Assembly: GCA_041740355.1 (NCBI GenBank)
Contig: JBGSMD010000020.1
Coordinates: 17,608-81,607 of the forward strand
Origin: Bdellovibrionota bacterium
Lineage (GTDB): Bacteria > Bdellovibrionota_C > UBA2361 > CALJRW01
DNA length: 64,000 nucleotides
Direction: 5' to 3'
Shown here: positions 2,263-45,354 of the stretch, piece after piece
How the letters are laid out: each line of letters opens with the position of its first letter
Position numbering within the stretch: the first letter of the stretch is position 1
Notes under the pieces: model-generated
Told to the model about the DNA's origin: nothing
Seen by the model: the letters and a program-made list of their open reading frames with translations, nothing else
Databases searched by the model: none
Made by a program: the position numbers and the translations under genes

Positions 2263-4269
2263 ATGAGTACTTTTTTCGAAAATCAATTAAATGCCAAGCG
2301 TCGCACTAAGCAACTGCTATTTCTTTATGTACTTGCGATTCTAGTAATTGTCCTAGGAATTTATCTGTTGTTTGCCTTCACCTTAGCATCCGGCGTGATA
2401 ACTGGCGGGATGTCTCCACTGCCCTTTGAATCTAAACTTGGCGTTCTTTGGAATTCCGCACTATTTCTAAAAGTCTTCTTAGGAGTTTCAATTATTATTG
2501 CGCTAGCTAGTGTTTTTAAATCCCTACAACTTGGTGGCAGTGGGGCTCGAGTAGCATCGATGCTAAATGGTCGCTTAATTAATCCTAACACAACACTAGC
2601 TACAGAAAAGCAAATTTTAAATATCGTCGAAGAAATTGCCATTGCTTCCGGAATGAAGGTTCCACCAATTTATGTCATGGAAGAGGAAGCAAGTATTAAT
2701 GCTTTTGCTGCCGGTACTAGACTAGACAATGCTGTGATTGGAGTTAGTCGTGGAGCACTTGAAACTCTCTCGCGGGATGAGTTGCAAGGTGTTGTTGCTC
2801 ATGAATTTAGTCATATCCTAAATGGTGACATGCGCTTAAATCTTCGACTGATTGGTATTTTATTTGGCATTTTATTCATCGCCTTAACGGGACGACTAAT
2901 CGTGGAAGGAACGGCGCGATCATCTAACTCTTATCGTCGTAGATCTAATGGTAAATCGGACGGAGGATCCGTCATTATAATTGGAATTGGCCTACTTGTA
3001 ATTGGCTACACTGGTGTTTTTTTTGCTAAATTAATTAAAATGGCTGTATCGCGTCAGCGGGAATATTTAGCCGATGCCTCAGCAGTGCAGTACACTCGTA
3101 ATCCTCTAGGTATTGCTGGAGCTTTAAAAAAAATTGGGGCCTTAGCTGATGGGTCAAAAATCAAGAATGCCCACGCAGAAGAAATTAGTCATATGTTTTT
3201 TGCTAATGGATTAAAAAGTAGTTTCACTAATCTATTCGCGACTCATCCCCCATTAACTGAAAGAATTCAAAGATTAGATCGCAGTTTTGATGGTGATTTT
3301 CAGAGCGTGGATGTTAATACGACAATCCCTCGGCAAGCTCGGGACGAGGCTACCTCTCGACAAGCTCGAGGTCCAGAAGCTAGCGCTTCTGGAGGTCCAC
3401 TTGATCCACTCCTCAAAAACCCAGCGTTAGAGTCTATCTTAAATAACCCCGCAGGAAATATTTTAGGGACAATTGGGACAATGGGATTTGCTAATTTAGA
3501 AGCAGCCAGAAATTTAATTAATAATCTTCCACCGCAAATTCATCAAGCTGTACACGAGCCCTACCTTGCTCCGTTTGTAATCTACACTCTATTACTAGAT
3601 GCCAAGCCAGATATTCGTGGAAAACAATTACAAATTCTGGAACAAAATCTTCCCTCAAGTTCTTTTCAGGAATTTTCTAAATTACTAATTACCTCTAAAG
3701 AAGTGAATCAAAATGACTTTCTCTCGATTCTAGATTTAGCACTTCCAACGCTCAATATGCTCTCCGAAAGTCAGTTTAAGCAAATGCGGGATTTAGTAAC
3801 TCACCTAGCTCACGCCGATGCAAATTTAGATCTACATGAATATACCTTGCAAATTATTCTATTAAAACATTATGATCTAAAATTTAATCCTGAAAAATTT
3901 AAGGGTCAAAAAAACAAACCACTGGGCAATTTAGTACAATTTGCTTCCGACTTATTTCTTTGCTTAGCAGTCTTAGGTAATAAGGATAATTTAGCCGTCG
4001 CGGAAGAGGCCTATCGGGCAGGAATTAAACATTGTGCTATCCCCGCTGAATTTCAACATAACTTTCAGGAATTACCGAAGGTAGGTTTTCATCTCTTGGA
4101 TCAAGCCATTAAAGAACTAAGCAATTCGGAATATAATGTGCGGGAAGTTTTACTAAGAGCTTGTATTTCATGCATCTCAATCGACAAAAAAATTTCGACT
4201 CATGAGTTCACCTTAATTCGAGCAATAGCTGATAGCTTTAATTGTCCGGTGCCATATTTAGGTAGTTAA
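2263..4269 (+). CDS. M48 family (HtpX-like) membrane zinc metallopeptidase with long C-terminal extension
   Basis: N-terminal TM helices, INAFAAG, HEFSH (HExxH), SRQREYLADA, THPP motifs. Confidence 0.9.
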   Translation: MSTFFENQLNAKRRTKQLLFLYVLAILVIVLGIYLLFAFTLASGVITGGMSPLPFESKLGVLWNSALFLKVFLGVSIIIALASVFKSLQLGGSGARVASMLNGRLINPNTTLATEKQILNIVEEIAIASGMKVPPIYVMEEEASINAFAAGTRLDNAVIGVSRGALETLSRDELQGVVAHEFSHILNGDMRLNLRLIGILFGILFIALTGRLIVEGTARSSNSYRRRSNGKSDGGSVIIIGIGLLVIGYTGVFFAKLIKMAVSRQREYLADASAVQYTRNPLGIAGALKKIGALADGSKIKNAHAEEISHMFFANGLKSSFTNLFATHPPLTERIQRLDRSFDGDFQSVDVNTTIPRQARDEATSRQARGPEASASGGPLDPLLKNPALESILNNPAGNILGTIGTMGFANLEAARNLINNLPPQIHQAVHEPYLAPFVIYTLLLDAKPDIRGKQLQILEQNLPSSSFQEFSKLLITSKEVNQNDFLSILDLALPTLNMLSESQFKQMRDLVTHLAHADANLDLHEYTLQIILLKHYDLKFNPEKFKGQKNKPLGNLVQFASDLFLCLAVLGNKDNLAVAEEAYRAGIKHCAIPAEFQHNFQELPKVGFHLLDQAIKELSNSEYNVREVLLRACISCISIDKKISTHEFTLIRAIADSFNCPVPYLGS

Positions 4270-41625: not shown

Positions 41626-42900
41626 TTAAAAATTGCTTTCTAGAAGTTCCAGAATCTCAGCAAATTGAGGTCGCTCTCCGTGAACTAAATTTAAACATCT
41701 ATCCATCAAAGTCTTTAGAAATGGTGTTGCTACTTCCTTGGTTTCACCAAGAAGATCCTGAATTAAATATCCAAAGGCACGCACTTCTATTTGTTCCCTC
41801 TCAATTGAGTTCCCACGATCATAAAATGACGCCGCACCAAAATCTCCCAAGAAGCACTCCCCAACATTTGTGGTTAAAATATTATGGGCATATAAATCAC
41901 CATGAGCAATTCCCCGCTGATGTAAATGATCTGCCGCCGAAGCAATATCTTTTAAAACTTGCAGAATAAATTCTAAGGACAAACTTGTCTCAGGTAAAAA
42001 GGTATCTCTAGTGCAACTCTCAAGGCTTGGTGGTAAGCCTAGCGATCGATAACTTGCGGGTATTAGCTTTAAAACCAATCCGGCATTTAGATTGCCATTT
42101 TCTGAGAATTGCCCATTAACTGGTATAATTTTTGGATGGGACTGAGCCGCAAGACAGGCTTTAAGATCATCAATTATATATCCATCACTGGTCATTGTCC
42201 CTCGATACTTTTTAACAGCAACAGGCTCTTGATATCCCGCAATGGTCGCCTTCCAGACTTCACAGGAAGGACTTTCTCCAATTTTCTCCGTTAAATTAAC
42301 TTGATCCCCATAAATAATAGGAACATTAATCAGTGCTAGATCTTTATTGTTAAAACAATTTCCTGAGTCTGCATACCAAGCTAATTTAGGTAACTTAAAA
42401 AGAAAGCTCGGCTCTTGCGAAAGTTTATTTGCGGAAAGTCTAATTAATTCTAATTCTTGGCAAAGCTCCAGTTCTTTAGGAATTGATTGCAAATCATTTC
42501 CCGTCAAAGCTAATTTTTTTAAATTTTTTAATTTACCAATAGATCTTGGTAAAGCTTGCAAATGATTGTCCGTTAAGATTAACCATTTCAAATTTTCAGG
42601 CAACGCATCTTCCGCAATTATTTTTAGCTGACAGGACTTAAAACCTAAAACTTCGAGTTTGGTGCAATATTTTAAAACAGCTGGAATGTCTGTAAATAGA
42701 TTCTTAGAGAAAAAGGCTATTTTAAGTTCTTGAAATTCTGTAATTGCCTCTGGCAAGCTAGTCAGCAGTCCTTGAGACATATCCAACACTTCAATTTGAT
42801 CAGCATAATCAAGTAATTCTAAGGGGAAATAACTCGCATTCCTAAGAGTTAGAGTTTTTGATTTAAGATCATAAAAGTGAAAAAAGGGTATCTCCTGCAT
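41626..42900 (-). CDS. Leucine-rich-repeat protein kinase
   Basis: LRRs (LKWLILTDNHLQALP, LKKLALTGNDL), VAVKKY, HGDLYAHN, LGDFG. Confidence 0.9.
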   Translation of the reverse strand: MQEIPFFHFYDLKSKTLTLRNASYFPLELLDYADQIEVLDMSQGLLTSLPEAITEFQELKIAFFSKNLFTDIPAVLKYCTKLEVLGFKSCQLKIIAEDALPENLKWLILTDNHLQALPRSIGKLKNLKKLALTGNDLQSIPKELELCQELELIRLSANKLSQEPSFLFKLPKLAWYADSGNCFNNKDLALINVPIIYGDQVNLTEKIGESPSCEVWKATIAGYQEPVAVKKYRGTMTSDGYIIDDLKACLAAQSHPKIIPVNGQFSENGNLNAGLVLKLIPASYRSLGLPPSLESCTRDTFLPETSLSLEFILQVLKDIASAADHLHQRGIAHGDLYAHNILTTNVGECFLGDFGAASFYDRGNSIEREQIEVRAFGYLIQDLLGETKEVATPFLKTLMDRCLNLVHGERPQFAEILELLESNF

Positions 42901-43031: not shown

Positions 43032-43718
43032 GTGCTTGTGCAAAATTATCAAATTCTAATTATCGATGACGATCTTTCCTTTACTAATTTGGTGAAGATT
43101 CGTTTGGAGAAAATTCTTAAGAATATTAATGTACAAAACTTTGAATCTTTGGCCTCGGCTGAAAAATTCCTAAAAAAAGCCGATCCCAACTATGACCTTG
43201 TCGTAATCGATCAACATCTTCCTGATGGACTTGGCAGTGACTTTATCAAAAAAGGACTATTTGGCTCTACGGCCGTTCTATCGATGAGCTCTGATCAAGC
43301 GATAGAAATTACAGCTAAATCTATCGGTGCAGGCGCAACTTTTTTCCTTCAGAAAGACGATCTTACGAAGCCTTTGTTTGAATATTTAATTCATGGCCTT
43401 ATTCAACGGAATCAAATCGCCAAGGAACTGAGTGATACCAATAAAAAACTGGTCAAACTAGATACCATCAAAAAAATGATTTCAACATTTAAACATGAAA
43501 TTAATAATCCGCTAACAGCAATTTTTGGTGCTTCATTTATTCTTAAACGTAAGTACGAGCATGAGAAAGAGCAGATGGAAGCAATTAGTTTGATTGATAT
43601 TAGCTCGAAAAGAATTAAGGAAATTATTGAAAGCATCGATCGCAATCCCGACTTAACGGAGGAAAGCAAATCCAATCAAAATGTATATAAAATTCCTGGT
43701 GATAAACCTTGGAAATAG
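43032..43718 (+). CDS. Receiver domain + HisKA dimerisation domain protein lacking an ATPase domain
   Basis: ILIIDDD, VVIDQHLPDG, LQK; H-box FKHEINNPL; ends about 75 aa later with no N/G boxes. Confidence 0.8.
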   Translation: MLVQNYQILIIDDDLSFTNLVKIRLEKILKNINVQNFESLASAEKFLKKADPNYDLVVIDQHLPDGLGSDFIKKGLFGSTAVLSMSSDQAIEITAKSIGAGATFFLQKDDLTKPLFEYLIHGLIQRNQIAKELSDTNKKLVKLDTIKKMISTFKHEINNPLTAIFGASFILKRKYEHEKEQMEAISLIDISSKRIKEIIESIDRNPDLTEESKSNQNVYKIPGDKPWK

Positions 43719-44040: not shown

Positions 44041-44064
44041 TCAAATACTGGGCGATTATTTGCC

Positions 44065-44094
44065 AAAAAAAAACGACCCAATGGGTCGTTTTTT
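44065..44094 (-). terminator. Intrinsic (bidirectional-looking) terminator of the RRM-S18 gene
   Basis: A-run, ACGACCC/GGGTCGT stem, T-run; about 20 nt past the stop. Confidence 0.85.
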
Positions 44095-44116
44095 AAATTC
44101 CAGTAACTCCTACGAA

Positions 44117-44641
44117 TTACTTAGAGTATGCCATCAAACCTAAGCTCTGAGCTCGCTTAACAGCTTTCTTCATTTTTCTTTGGTTGTATGAAGAAAGGCC
44201 AGTGTACTTTCTAGAAAGTAATCGCCCACGCTCGCTAACAAATCTTGCTAGAGCATTTACATCACGATATGAAAGTTCTTTAGTTGGGTCCTGAACATAA
44301 GGATCCATTCTGCGATTACGCTTAAAAATTGGAACTCTTTGAATCGGTGGAAAATATTCTTGCTTAGTAGTTTCACGAACTTCAGCAGGTTTACCTTTAT
44401 CAAAGGCAACTTTCATTGGTCGACTATTGATAACTCTTTCGTTCAAAGCTTTAACAGCTTTCTCGGCGTCATCAACATTTTCCATTTCGATGAAAGCGAA
44501 TCCACGAGAACGTTTTGTTTCACGGTCAACAGCGATGACAACGCTTAAACATGGACCAAACTCTTCAAACATTACTCTCAAATCGTCGTTAGTAACTTCA
44601 AAATCAATATTGCTTACAAATAATCTTCTTCTTTTTTCCAT
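44117..44641 (-). CDS. rpsR: RRM domain - ribosomal protein bS18 fusion
   Basis: RNP2 LFVSNI and RNP1 RGFAFIEM, then S18 core YRDVNALARFVSERGRLLSRKYTGLSSYNQRKMKKAVKRAQSLGLMAY in one frame. Confidence 0.88.
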   Translation of the reverse strand: MEKRRRLFVSNIDFEVTNDDLRVMFEEFGPCLSVVIAVDRETKRSRGFAFIEMENVDDAEKAVKALNERVINSRPMKVAFDKGKPAEVRETTKQEYFPPIQRVPIFKRNRRMDPYVQDPTKELSYRDVNALARFVSERGRLLSRKYTGLSSYNQRKMKKAVKRAQSLGLMAYSK

Positions 44642-44668
44642 TGCATTAATTAACAAAATAGCTCGCGA

Positions 44669-44697
44669 ATATTAGTTAATCTGAGGTTTTATGTCAA
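44669..44697 (-). promoter_or_regulatory. sigma70 promoter of the RRM-S18 gene
   Basis: TTGACA-17 bp-TAATAT on the minus strand; -10 box 27 nt before the ATG. Confidence 0.75.
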
Positions 44698-45024
44698 GGA
44701 TTAGGAAAATTCCCAACTTCGCAGCATTTTTGGTTCCAAAACTTACTGTCCTGCTAAGCTATTAAAATTTAAAGCTAAATAAATGCATAATTTTTATAAC
44801 TGTGTTTTATAGTTAAGCATCCAGTTTCATTGACAAAAAAATATTTTTTTTATAAATAACAACTTGTTACGCAAGAAATGTCGAAGATTTTTCTTGACTT
44901 AGCTTGTTTAAGTAGTTTATAGAAATTACTTAGTTTTTACTGTAAGTTAGGTTGACGTCCCTTTAGTTAATTTAATTCACTAGTTCGCCTCGGTTTTATA
45001 CAGACAGTTTTTTGGAGCCCAATA

Positions 45025-45354
45025 ATGAGTACTAGCAACGCCTATAAGAGATTTGGATTTGAAGATGATGATTCCTTTTCGGAAGCCAAGTCAGAGGTAA
45101 AACCGGAAAGAAACCTGCTTGCAGCAGTTCTTTCTAGAGCAATTTGTGATGCTTTTGGAACGGCACATTGTGAGCGACACGTTGTAAGAAGCGCACGTCG
45201 TTGGATTTTTAGCCAATTAACACCTAAAATTCCTTTTAGTTTTGCTTGGGTTAGTATTCATTTAGATCTTGAACCAACTGAACTTCAAAATAGCCTTCGT
45301 ACTTACGAAGATAATCCCGATGACATCCAAGACCGCCTTGCTCTTTTAAAATAG
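45025..45354 (+). CDS. Conserved-looking hypothetical protein
   Basis: PERNLLAAVL..AI.D...ARRWI...FSF..V...LDL pattern; GGAG upstream. Confidence 0.75.
   Translation: MSTSNAYKRFGFEDDDSFSEAKSEVKPERNLLAAVLSRAICDAFGTAHCERHVVRSARRWIFSQLTPKIPFSFAWVSIHLDLEPTELQNSLRTYEDNPDDIQDRLALLK

What the first reader, a model, noticed from the sequence alone, without database searches (positions are those of the whole stretch)
44065..44697. RRM-bS18 fusion: a ribosomal protein carrying its own single-stranded RNA-binding domain
Seen: one 174-aa frame with a complete RRM (RNP2/RNP1), a ~30-aa linker and a complete Cys-free (zinc-independent-type) S18 core. It is monocistronic, with a TTGACA-17-TAATAT promoter and a strong terminator, and lies outside the usual rpsF-rpsR-rplI context. 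Established: bS18 sits on the 30S platform beside the anti-SD and mRNA exit path. Many starts in this window lack an obvious SD. Inference: the tethered RRM could recruit or select mRNAs (S1-like), create specialised ribosomes if a canonical rpsR also exists, or act as a regulator. I know of no described fusion of this kind.
Basis: partly seen in the sequence, partly recalled or inferred. Interest (0 to 1): 0.85.

Follow-up and report, generated by a model that had tools for sequence, protein, structure and literature searches.

The report
RRM-fused ribosomal protein bS18
This gene encodes the organism's only copy of small-subunit ribosomal protein S18 with an extra single-stranded-RNA-binding domain fused to its front end, a design shared by a whole bacterial phylum that probably puts an RNA-grabbing module where messenger RNA leaves the ribosome.

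Summary
A minus-strand ORF (44117-44641, 174 aa) carries a complete RRM_1 domain, a disordered ~30-aa linker and a complete Cys-free bS18 core. It has its own promoter-like site and a hairpin-U9 terminator.

It is not an assembly error and not a spare paralogue. It is the only S18 gene in a 97%-complete genome, and rpsF is followed directly by rplI with no rpsR. In the GTDB phylum of the window, 116 of 124 genomes have exactly one S18 gene, and 113 of those sit in frames of 170-268 aa.

"Specialised ribosomes through a second rpsR" is therefore rejected: every ribosome should carry the RRM.

The RNP1/RNP2 RNA-contact residues are conserved across the phylum, and the linker is variable and low-complexity. 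The likeliest role is a tethered ssRNA-binding module at the platform and mRNA-exit site; this is inferred, not shown.

This genome has essentially no Shine-Dalgarno signal but keeps the anti-SD and the prfB frameshift SD. Other fusion-bearing genomes show weak SD use like outgroups, so SD loss and the fusion are not co-extensive.

A highly conserved 109-aa unknown protein sits just upstream in 94 of 116 genomes. Six full-text searches for the architecture found no paper describing it.

The parts
44117..44641 (-). CDS of the RRM-bS18 fusion (174 aa plus stop). It is the only S18 gene of the genome.
44654..44656 (-). Alternative in-frame TTG start (179 aa). Less likely than the ATG at 44639-44641.
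   Evidence: N-termini of relatives
44414..44623 (-). RRM_1 domain, residues 7-76. RNP2 is L7-F8-V9-S10-N11-I12 and RNP1 is R46-G47-F48-A49-F50-I51-E52-M53. The predicted fold is beta-alpha-beta-beta-alpha-beta.
   Evidence: alignment (G47 and F48 invariant; F8, N11, F50 and E52 in at least 90%); model; Foldseek matches to RRMs with TM (target) up to 0.94
44312..44401 (-). Linker, residues 81-110. It is a disordered spacer followed by the basic N-terminal tail of bS18 (FKRNRRMDPY).
   Evidence: In one search, mean pLDDT is 59, 49 and 62 for the three 10-residue blocks, and residues 87-97 are below 50. In one search the linker is variable in length and rich in G/S/R/E; whole proteins range from 174 to 212 aa.
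44126..44323 (-). bS18 core, residues 107-172 by TIGR00165 (Pfam 121-170 corresponds to 44132-44281). No Cys.
   Evidence: invariant S136, R138, G139, R144, T147, G148, L149, Q154 and R163; PDB S18 chains matched
44669..44697 (-). Sigma-70-like promoter TTGACA-17-TAATAT. It implies a leader of about 20 nt, AU-rich and without an SD.
   Evidence: sequence
44065..44094 (.). Intrinsic-terminator hairpin flanked by an A-run and a T-run. It is usable in both directions, with U9 on the gene's strand.
   Evidence: sequence
45025..45354 (+). Divergently transcribed 109-aa ORF of unknown family. It is the conserved upstream neighbour of the fusion gene across the phylum. Whether it is functionally linked is open.
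   Evidence: no family found

Best explanation
SHOWN. The gene encodes the organism's single, constitutive ribosomal protein bS18. In the common ancestor of this phylum, a glycine-rich-RBP-type module (an RRM plus a low-complexity tail) was fused onto the N-terminus of bS18. The gene left the rpsF-rpsR-rplI operon.

INFERRED. The S18 core assembles with bS6 on the 30S platform as usual. The N-terminal tail of bS18 is the part that points into the platform cavity, where mRNA exits and the SD/anti-SD helix forms. The RRM hangs from that tail on a flexible 25-70-residue tether, so every ribosome carries a mobile single-stranded-RNA-binding domain there.

MOST LIKELY ROLE (inferred). The RRM captures or keeps unfolded the AU-rich 5' leaders of mRNAs at the exit or standby site. 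This would add to bS1 and to weak or absent SD pairing during initiation.

My confidence that this is the functional sole bS18 with a selected RRM is about 0.95. My confidence in the mRNA-leader mechanism is about 0.4. The figure given below is for the whole statement.
For: Identity and sole copy:
- Both domains score above the curated cut-offs.
- There is one PF01084 match in the own genome, which is 97.27% complete.
- rpsF is followed directly by rplI.

Conservation:
- 40 of 41 nearest genomes have the fusion in one frame. The 41st has no S18 match and is 85% complete.
- 116 of 124 genomes of the phylum have exactly one S18 match, and 113 of those lie in frames of 170-268 aa.
- RRM and S18 were found in one frame in 30 of 32 fetched loci.
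- 116 of 120 listed database hits and 120 of 120 listed profile hits carry PF00076 plus PF01084. The profile search found 731 clusters at E<=1e-25.

Selection:
- RNP1 and RNP2 aromatic and Gly positions are invariant or present in at least 90% of 22 proteins spanning the phylum.
- 29 of 32 listed CDS substitutions in independent contigs fall on third codon positions, and there are no indels.

Architecture:
- The AlphaFold2 model has two confident domains (pLDDT above 90) joined by a segment below 50, with pTM 0.47.
- The linker varies in length and is low-complexity.
- A free-standing RRM with an RGG tail exists in the same genome and is a plausible donor type.

Position:
- In Flavobacterium the 16S 3' tail lies in a groove formed by bS6 and bS18 (PMC7797042, passages read).

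Context:
- This genome has no SD signal.
- Its leaders are AU-rich, with words such as ATAA, TATAA and TTATAA 1.8-2.7-fold enriched and a maximum of 0.084 bits per position.
- bS1, bS21 and bS6 are all still encoded, so the RRM is an addition and not a replacement.
Against: - No experiment or structure shows the protein in a ribosome, what the RRM binds, or whether the linker is cleaved.
- The fusion does not track SD loss. Fusion-bearing G016, G051, G062 and G050 have SD cores at 33, 21, 28 and 33% of starts, against 4-21% in their control windows. This is similar to two genomes of another phylum with canonical S18, at 27 and 26% against 3-12%. Those samples are small, 31-147 starts each, and my start calls are crude.
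- One genome (G049) has S18 in a 110-aa frame with no RRM in any frame upstream. If that assembly is right, the RRM is dispensable there.
- bS1 is present, so an mRNA-capture module already exists.
- The location of the RRM on the 30S was not modelled. It rests on literature statements about the bS18 N-terminus.
Confidence: 0.5

Rival explanations
1. The RRM's ligand is ribosomal RNA, not mRNA. Either it holds the single-stranded 3' tail of 16S rRNA (the anti-SD) and so tunes or blocks SD pairing, as the bS21/bS18/bS6 pocket does in Bacteroidia. Or it docks on a 16S helix as an architectural element, as the RRMs of chloroplast cS22 do.
For: - The 16S 3' tail is the nearest single-stranded RNA to the bS18 N-terminus (PMC7797042, passages read).
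- This genome combines no SD signal, a retained CCUCC anti-SD (also seen in 42 of 124 genomes of the phylum) and a retained prfB +1 frameshift site with an internal AAGGAG. That is the same paradox as in Bacteroidia.
- Chloroplast cS22 is among the best PDB sequence matches of the RRM (5x8p_v, E 1.8e-20). Its RRMs bind 16S h6 and h10 (preprint passage).
Against: - The linker varies from about 25 to about 70 residues and is predicted disordered. That fits a mobile domain better than a fixed docking site.
- Other fusion-bearing genomes keep some SD use, so constitutive anti-SD blockade is unlikely across the phylum.
- At the positions of the Bacteroidia-specific anti-SD contacts of bS18 (Lys37, Phe50, Asn56), this protein has Gln117, Ala130 and Ser136. 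I read this from the ungapped offset of the 7jil_w match, query 16-73 against chain 35-92, without seeing a residue-level alignment. It bears only on the core pocket, not on the RRM.
Confidence: 0.25
2. The RRM acts mainly off the translating ribosome. It could be an RNA chaperone for folding of the 16S central domain during 30S assembly, a cold or stress adaptation inherited from glycine-rich RBPs, or a translational autoregulator binding its own leader.
For: - The domain is of the glycine-rich RBP type. A free RRM with an RGG tail occurs in the same genome, and one source names a family member 'cold-inducible RNA-binding protein'.
- The bS6:bS18 pair is an assembly unit of the platform (established knowledge, recalled).
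- In Bacteroidetes, rpsR is proposed to be autoregulated (PMC7797042).
- Several relatives have SD-like words just upstream of the fusion gene: AGGAG in L007, GAGG in L028, GGGAG in L025 and GGAG in L036.
Against: - No conserved leader element was found in an alignment of 7 upstream regions of the same order; mean column identity was 45%.
- Rfam gave no match in the window.
- The window's own gene and its rpsU lack any SD.
- Fusion to an obligate stoichiometric ribosomal protein places the RRM on every mature ribosome, which argues for a function there.
Confidence: 0.15
3. One reading: the fusion is a paralogue that makes a subpopulation of specialised ribosomes beside a canonical bS18.
For: None found.
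Against: - There is one S18 match in the own genome.
- Each of the 116 genomes of the phylum that have S18 has exactly one match.
- rpsF and rplI are adjacent without rpsR.
Confidence: 0.02
4. Artefact: a sequencing or assembly error hides a stop or frameshift between two separate genes.
For: Two of the 116 genomes show broken forms. G087 has the RRM and S18 in two adjacent frames, in an assembly of about 800 contigs. G046 is cut by a contig end.
Against: - The same single frame is seen in 113 of 116 independent genome assemblies.
- It is also seen in contigs of independent runs without indels.
- The substitution pattern is dominated by third codon positions across both domains and the linker.
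Confidence: 0.01

Closest known systems
Canonical bacterial bS18 (rpsR, Cys-free type; e.g. PDB chains 5myj_AR, 7nhk_s)
   Same: The S18 core matches over residues ~101-172. The basic N-terminal tail is kept. The partner bS6 is encoded. It is single-copy.
   Different: It carries about 80 residues of RRM plus a disordered spacer in front. The gene is not between rpsF and rplI. No PDB chain covers both domains among the 60 chains shown of 277 matched.
Chloroplast cS22 (PSRP2), a two-RRM protein of the plastid 30S
   Same: It is an RRM-type domain as a stoichiometric part of a bacterial-type small subunit. It is among the best PDB sequence matches of this RRM (5x8p_v, E 1.8e-20).
   Different: It is a separate nuclear-encoded polypeptide. 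It binds 16S h6 and h10 at the foot of the subunit (preprint 10.64898/2026.07.03.736309, passage read), not the platform. It is restricted to land plants.
Chloroplast bS18c N-terminal extension
   Same: It is an extension of the same terminus of the same protein. It projects into the platform cavity and is proposed to contact mRNA (preprint passage).
   Different: It consists of short repeated basic and aromatic heptads, about 19-55 residues long, and is not a folded RNA-binding domain.
Bacteroidia anti-SD sequestration by bS21, bS18 and bS6 (Flavobacterium johnsoniae 70S, PDB 7JIL)
   Same: Same genomic syndrome in the window's genome: almost no SD, a retained anti-SD and a retained prfB frameshift SD. 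bS18 is at the centre of the mechanism.
   Different: There the occlusion is by residues of the S18 core and bS21. The Bacteroidia-specific residues are not matched here, read by offset only. Bacteroidia have no RRM on bS18. In this phylum the fusion is universal but SD loss is not.
bS1 (rpsA)
   Same: It is a ribosome-bound, flexibly attached ssRNA-binding module near the platform that captures and unfolds leaders. This is the functional analogy proposed here.
   Different: It has an OB (S1) fold, six repeats and reversible binding through uS2. It is still encoded here, in a 570-aa frame scoring 548.9 bits, just under the TIGR00717 cut-off of 577.
Free bacterial RRM and glycine-rich RNA-binding proteins (cyanobacterial Rbp type; NCBIfam NF058537 Rbp_regulator)
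   Same: Same single RRM with RNP1 and RNP2 followed by a low-complexity G/R-rich tail. A free copy exists in this genome.
   Different: Those proteins are free-standing. This protein scores 85.4 bits, below the NF058537 cut-off of 100, so it is not a member of that equivalog.
bS6-bS18 fusions found here in another phylum
   Same: They are another natural N-terminal fusion onto bS18, with a linker of about 40 residues. Ribosomal_S6 and Ribosomal_S18 lie in one frame in 5 genomes.
   Different: The fused partner is the neighbouring ribosomal protein itself, not an added RNA-binding domain.

Membership tests
Ribosomal protein bS18 (PF01084 / TIGR00165) | Profile score above the curated cut-off | tested here: met
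   PF01084 scores 65 bits against a cut-off of 21. TIGR00165 scores 54.5 bits against 38.75.
Ribosomal protein bS18 (PF01084 / TIGR00165) | It serves as the genome's S18 (no other copy), and the partner bS6 is present | tested here: met
   One match in the own genome. One match in each of 116 genomes. rpsF is present.
Ribosomal protein bS18 (PF01084 / TIGR00165) | Physical incorporation into the 30S platform | not testable with these tools
   No proteomic or structural data are available. No RNA run was listed.
Ribosomal protein bS18 (PF01084 / TIGR00165) | Usual operon context rpsF-(priB/ssb)-rpsR-rplI. This is typical of the family, not defining. | tested here: not met
   The order is rplY-pth-rpsF-rplI on another contig. 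The fusion gene's neighbours are unrelated genes.
RRM_1 (PF00076) | Profile score above the cut-off over the full domain | tested here: met
   80.8 bits against 20.7, covering profile positions 1-69 of 70.
RRM_1 (PF00076) | RNP2 and RNP1 motifs with their aromatic residues | tested here: met
   LFVSNI and RGFAFIEM are present. G47 and F48 are invariant, and F8, N11, F50 and E52 are present in at least 90% of 22 sequences. The consensus patterns themselves are recalled knowledge.
RRM_1 (PF00076) | beta-alpha-beta-beta-alpha-beta fold | tested here: met
   The model has E5-10, H18-26, E31-38, E45-53, H56-66 and E77-80 with pLDDT 94-96. Foldseek matches solved RRMs with TM (target) up to 0.94 and rmsd 0.8 A.
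RRM_1 (PF00076) | Binds single-stranded RNA | not testable with these tools
   Inferred only from the conserved RNP residues.
NCBIfam NF058537 Rbp_regulator (free bacterial RRM regulator) | Score above the equivalog cut-off | tested here: not met
   85.4 bits against a cut-off of 100.
Bacteroidia-type anti-SD-sequestering bS18 | Bacteroidia-specific contact residues Lys37, Phe50 and Asn56 of F. johnsoniae bS18 (PMC7797042) | tested here: inconclusive
   By the ungapped offset of the 7jil_w match, these positions are Gln117, Ala130 and Ser136 here. No residue-level alignment was printed.
Chloroplast cS22 (PSRP2) | Free protein with two tandem RRMs | tested here: not met
   There is one RRM, fused to S18.

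The most novel reading that the evidence does not exclude
A whole bacterial phylum builds its ribosomes with a eukaryote-style RRM wired to the platform at the mRNA exit. This tethered domain would be a dedicated, SD-independent device for recruiting or unfolding mRNA leaders, a third solution beside SD/anti-SD pairing and bS1. It may work together with the very highly conserved 109-aa protein of unknown family that has stayed next to the gene across the phylum.
Probability: 0.25. Interest if true: 0.85.

Novelty: new variant of a known kind. Interest (0 to 1): 0.68.

Why it matters
Core ribosomal proteins rarely acquire folded accessory domains in bacteria, and bS18 sits exactly where mRNA leaders and the anti-SD meet.

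A universal, selected RRM at that spot in an entire phylum offers three things:
- A natural experiment on how initiation works when SD pairing is weak or absent.
- A precedent for plastid-like RRM accretion on a free-living bacterial ribosome.
- A clean synapomorphy for the lineage.

It gives a directly testable case, by comparing the RRM-deleted with the full-length protein, for whether ribosome-resident RNA-binding domains shape mRNA selection.

Tried and rejected
The ESM Atlas label is 'Bdellovibrionota', known for 4 members. I therefore cannot name the GTDB phylum.
- The search of protein representatives. The best 150 were swamped by long multi-RRM proteins; only P0158, P0161 and the fragment P0117 are S18 fusions. 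Its E-value counts say nothing about the number of fusions.
- Spread outside the phylum was tested only in one other phylum. That was a sample of 201 genomes, 194 with S18, with 150 rows listed and 47 unlisted. All 6 frames above 200 aa plus 2 others were fetched, and none had an RRM. Four further genomes were also checked. A survey of all bacteria was not possible.
- RNA evidence: no RNA holder was listed.
- Complex prediction of the fusion with the 109-aa neighbour gave no verdict.
- The AlphaFold2 model of the 109-aa neighbour is low-confidence (pLDDT 58.5, all-helical), so no fold search was run on it.
- The consensus terminator scan listed no site, although the hairpin folds well.
- No Rfam family was found in the window, and no conserved leader in 7 upstream regions.
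- The hypothesis 'the fusion replaces SD pairing' as a phylum-wide rule is not supported by the SD counts.
- One paper search failed on term length and was not repeated.
- The preprint's reference list is not held, so its reference 29 on the bS18 N-terminus could not be identified.
- Supplementary files were not consulted.
Full report
WHAT IS THERE

The finding's interval holds one minus-strand ORF. It runs from ATG at 44641 to the stop at 44117-44119 and encodes 174 aa; an in-frame TTG at 44656 would add five residues.

Pfam places RRM_1 on residues 7-76 (E 6.8e-23) and Ribosomal_S18 on residues 121-170 (E 6.6e-18), both far above the curated cut-offs. The NCBIfam S18 equivalog TIGR00165 is also passed, at 54.5 against 38.75 bits over residues 107-172. 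The free-RRM equivalog NF058537 is not passed, at 85.4 against 100 bits. The single Cys lies in the RRM, so the S18 core is Cys-free.

A TTGACA-17-TAATAT site lies at 44697-44669 on the gene's strand. That scan as a whole was not above chance. It implies a leader of about 20 nt that is AU-rich and has no SD.

Twenty-two bases after the stop, a CGACCC/GGGTCG hairpin flanked by A9 and T6 gives a hairpin-U9 terminator on the gene's strand. The 66-nt stretch folds at -22 kcal/mol, z -4.96. The consensus terminator scan did not list it. Both flanking genes are on the other strand.

NOT AN ARTEFACT AND NOT A PARALOGUE

The window's genome has 74 contigs and is 97.27% complete. It has one S18 match, and that match is this gene. 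It has two RRM matches: this gene and a free-standing RRM with an RGG-rich tail on another contig.

rpsF lies elsewhere in the order rplY-pth-rpsF-rplI, with rplI starting 70 nt after rpsF and no rpsR between them.

Contigs from independent sequencing runs cover the whole gene (44064-44702, 63 substitutions, 0 gaps) and the linker region (44286-44626, 17 substitutions, 0 gaps). Of the 32 substitutions listed inside the CDS, 29 fall on third codon positions; 61 further differences were not shown.

SPREAD

- Of the 41 nearest genomes (31 genera, 21 families, one order), 40 have the RRM and S18 in one open frame. The exception has no S18 match and is 85% complete.
- The whole GTDB phylum as held is 124 species genomes in a single class with 36 families. 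In it, 116 genomes have an S18 match, each exactly one, and 113 of these lie in open frames of 170-268 aa.
- The three exceptions are G087 (two adjacent frames, about 800 contigs), G046 (cut by a contig end) and G049.
- The eight genomes without S18 are 55-90% complete.
- I fetched 32 loci and found both domains in one frame in 30 of them: 12 of 12 from the window's order and 18 of 20 from other orders.
- In G049 the S18 frame is 110 aa and begins with linker-like residues but has no start codon before the 'MGYF' of the S18 tail. No RRM is found in any frame upstream. If the assembly is right, this is a single secondary loss; two sister genomes of its family keep the fusion.
- In the protein collections, 116 of 120 listed hits to the protein and 120 of 120 listed hits to a profile of 22 family members carry both Pfam domains. 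The profile search found 731 clusters at E<=1e-25 among 8000 candidates scored.
- An ESM Atlas cluster of 50 members has both domains in 100% of members and is labelled 'commonest Bdellovibrionota', with the phylum known for 4 members.
- I could not name the GTDB phylum.

In a 201-genome sample of another phylum, the one containing a MAG labelled Bdellovibrionales, 194 genomes have S18. The 150 listed rows have frames of 79-161 aa, except six above 200 aa. None of those six has an RRM, nor do two further frames that I fetched. Five of the six are bS6-bS18 fusions. Four further genomes of other labels have canonical S18. A census of all bacteria was not possible with these tools.

ANATOMY ACROSS THE FAMILY

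An alignment of 22 proteins spanning the phylum (33-61% identical to the window's protein) gives the following:
- G47 and F48 of RNP1 are invariant. F8 and N11 of RNP2 and F50 and E52 of RNP1 are present in at least 90%.
- The S18 core has invariant S136, R138, G139, R144, T147, G148, L149, Q154 and R163.
- The basic tail that precedes the core in ordinary S18 is kept (FKRNRRMDPY here; RKKKKxDPF in most others).
- Between the domains lies a segment of very variable length, rich in G, S, R, E and D. Whole proteins range from 174 to 212 aa.

AlphaFold2 gives two confident domains (pLDDT 94-96 for residues 11-80 and 91-95 for residues 121-170), a stretch below 50 at residues 87-97, and pTM 0.47. 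That means no fixed mutual orientation. Foldseek matches the N-terminal half to solved RRMs with TM (target) up to 0.94. By sequence, no PDB chain covers both halves; chloroplast cS22 is among the best RRM matches.

The layout is an RRM, a low-complexity tail and then S18. Together with the free RRM-RGG protein in the same genome, this suggests that a glycine-rich RBP gene was fused in front of rpsR once, early in the lineage. That is inference.

WHERE THE RRM WOULD SIT, AND WHAT IT MAY DO

I did not dock the model. The argument rests on literature:
- In Flavobacterium johnsoniae the 3' tail of 16S rRNA, with the anti-SD, lies in a groove formed by bS6 and bS18 and is capped by bS21 (PMC7797042, abstract and passages read).

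An RRM tethered by 25-70 flexible residues to that terminus can therefore reach both the emerging 5' leader and the 16S 3' tail. Because the gene is the only S18, every ribosome should carry the RRM. bS1 (570-aa frame), bS21 and bS6 are all still encoded, so the RRM is an addition, not a substitute.

SHINE-DALGARNO TEST

I took ORFs of at least 150 codons whose first start codon lies within 20 codons of the upstream stop, with no other start in the next 20 codons. I counted GGAG, GAGG or AGGA in -20..-4, and in three control windows.

| Genome | S18 type | SD cores at starts | Control windows |
|---|---|---|---|
| Own genome | fusion | 142/1121 = 13% | 9, 10 and 11% |
| E. coli K-12, 50 kb (check on the script) | canonical | 7/15 | 0-1 of 15 |
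| G016 | fusion | 19/58 = 33% | 4-21% across the four fusion genomes |
| G051 | fusion | 31/147 = 21% | as above |
| G062 | fusion | 24/85 = 28% | as above |
| G050 | fusion | 23/70 = 33% | as above |
| G316, other phylum | canonical | 13/49 = 27% | 3-12% across the two |
| G144, other phylum | canonical | 8/31 = 26% | as above |

In the own genome the highest G frequency upstream is 0.18, against a background of 0.17.

So the window's genome is essentially SD-free. The fusion, however, is universal in the phylum while SD loss is not. These samples are small and my start calls are crude.

The genome keeps the anti-SD (...GGAUUACCUCCUUU; CCUCC is also kept in the 42 of 124 genomes where the pattern was found). 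It also keeps the prfB +1 frameshift site with an internal SD, AAGGAG-TTT-CTT-TGA-C. This is the same combination as in Bacteroidia (PMC10798248, abstract seen in the listing).

Leaders here are AU-rich with almost no positional information. The maximum is 0.084 bits at -15, and AU words are enriched 1.8-2.7-fold. Neither the fusion gene nor rpsU has an SD in this genome.

VERDICT ON MECHANISM

Shown:
- This is the lineage's sole bS18.
- It bears a conserved, selected RRM on a disordered tether.
- It has left the rpsF operon.

Inferred, about 0.4: the RRM binds or unfolds mRNA leaders at the exit or standby site, in a bS1-like way.

Main rival, about 0.25: it binds rRNA, either the 16S 3' tail or a helix as cS22 does.

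Lesser rival, about 0.15: it works in assembly, in stress response or in autoregulation.

Paralogue-based specialised ribosomes and an assembly artefact are rejected.

A CONSERVED NEIGHBOUR

The 109-aa ORF at 45025-45354 is transcribed divergently from the fusion gene.
- It has no Pfam, NCBIfam or PHROG match.
- It is 56-75% identical across the phylum, which is more conserved than the fusion itself. It is present in 122 of 124 genomes. Its invariant core is ERNLLxAVLxRAICDAFGxAxCxRHxVRSARxWxF.
- In 94 of the 116 genomes with S18, its best homologue lies directly upstream of the fusion gene, within 2.5 kb. It is divergent in 74 of 84 genomes of the window's order and co-oriented in 20 of the 32 genomes of other orders.
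- Of the remaining 22 genomes, 16 have it on another contig, 4 have it further away and 2 have no listed hit.
- ESM Atlas puts it among unnamed 'hypothetical protein' clusters that include phage and Pseudomonadota members.
- Its model is low-confidence.
- Whether it is functionally tied to the fusion is open.

So 'monocistronic' holds in this window, but possibly not in the other orders.

PRIOR KNOWLEDGE

Six full-text searches for the architecture found nothing relevant, and one search on bS18 N-terminal phrases found only the preprint above. The architecture is visible but uncommented in public protein databases. Supplementary files and subscription journals were not searched.

I class it as a new variant of a known kind: bS18 with an accreted RNA-binding domain.

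Noticed in passing
window 45025-45354 (+): A 109-aa ORF of no known family. It is 56-75% identical across the phylum, present in 122 of 124 genomes, and directly upstream of the RRM-bS18 gene in 94 of 116 genomes. It is divergent in the window's order and co-oriented in other orders. Genomes also hold weaker paralogues (37-51% identity).
   Followed up: partly
L167-L171 (G278, G209, G286, G170, G266; another phylum): Ribosomal_S6 and Ribosomal_S18 lie in one open frame of 203-234 aa. These are natural bS6-bS18 fusions in 5 of the 150 S18 rows listed for a 201-genome sample (194 with S18).
   Followed up: partly
L032 (G049:C117, about 4000-4230): An S18 gene without the RRM. The frame still begins with linker-like residues but has no start codon before the S18 tail, and the conserved 109-aa gene lies upstream on the same strand. 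It is either an apparent secondary loss or an assembly fault.
   Followed up: partly
L214 about 1455-1545 (G000:C26): prfB keeps the programmed +1 frameshift site AAGGAG-TTT-CTT-TGA-C, although the genome has essentially no SD signal at its starts.
   Followed up: partly
G000:C38 (16S 3' end); also G001 and one of three copies in G087: The 16S 3' end reads GGATTACCTCCTT where most of the phylum has GGATCACCTCCTT. This is one base 5' of the anti-SD core.
   Followed up: no
window 43032-43718 (+); L012 332-1021, L014 2022-2690, L015 2176-2862: A protein of about 228 aa with Response_reg and HisKA domains recurs next to the fusion gene in 4 of 8 same-order loci whose flanks were scanned.
   Followed up: no
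L003 3-368 (-) (G000:C25, contig end): A free-standing RRM protein with a long RGG/Gly-rich tail. It is the likely type of donor for the fused module.
   Followed up: no
window 41626-42900 (-): A 424-aa ORF combining leucine-rich repeats with a Ser/Thr/Tyr protein-kinase domain.
   Followed up: no
L122 1465-1731 (-) (G000:C47): The bS21 gene encodes 88 aa, with about 20 extra N-terminal residues and no SD upstream. This differs from the SD-bearing rpsU of Flavobacteriia.
   Followed up: no
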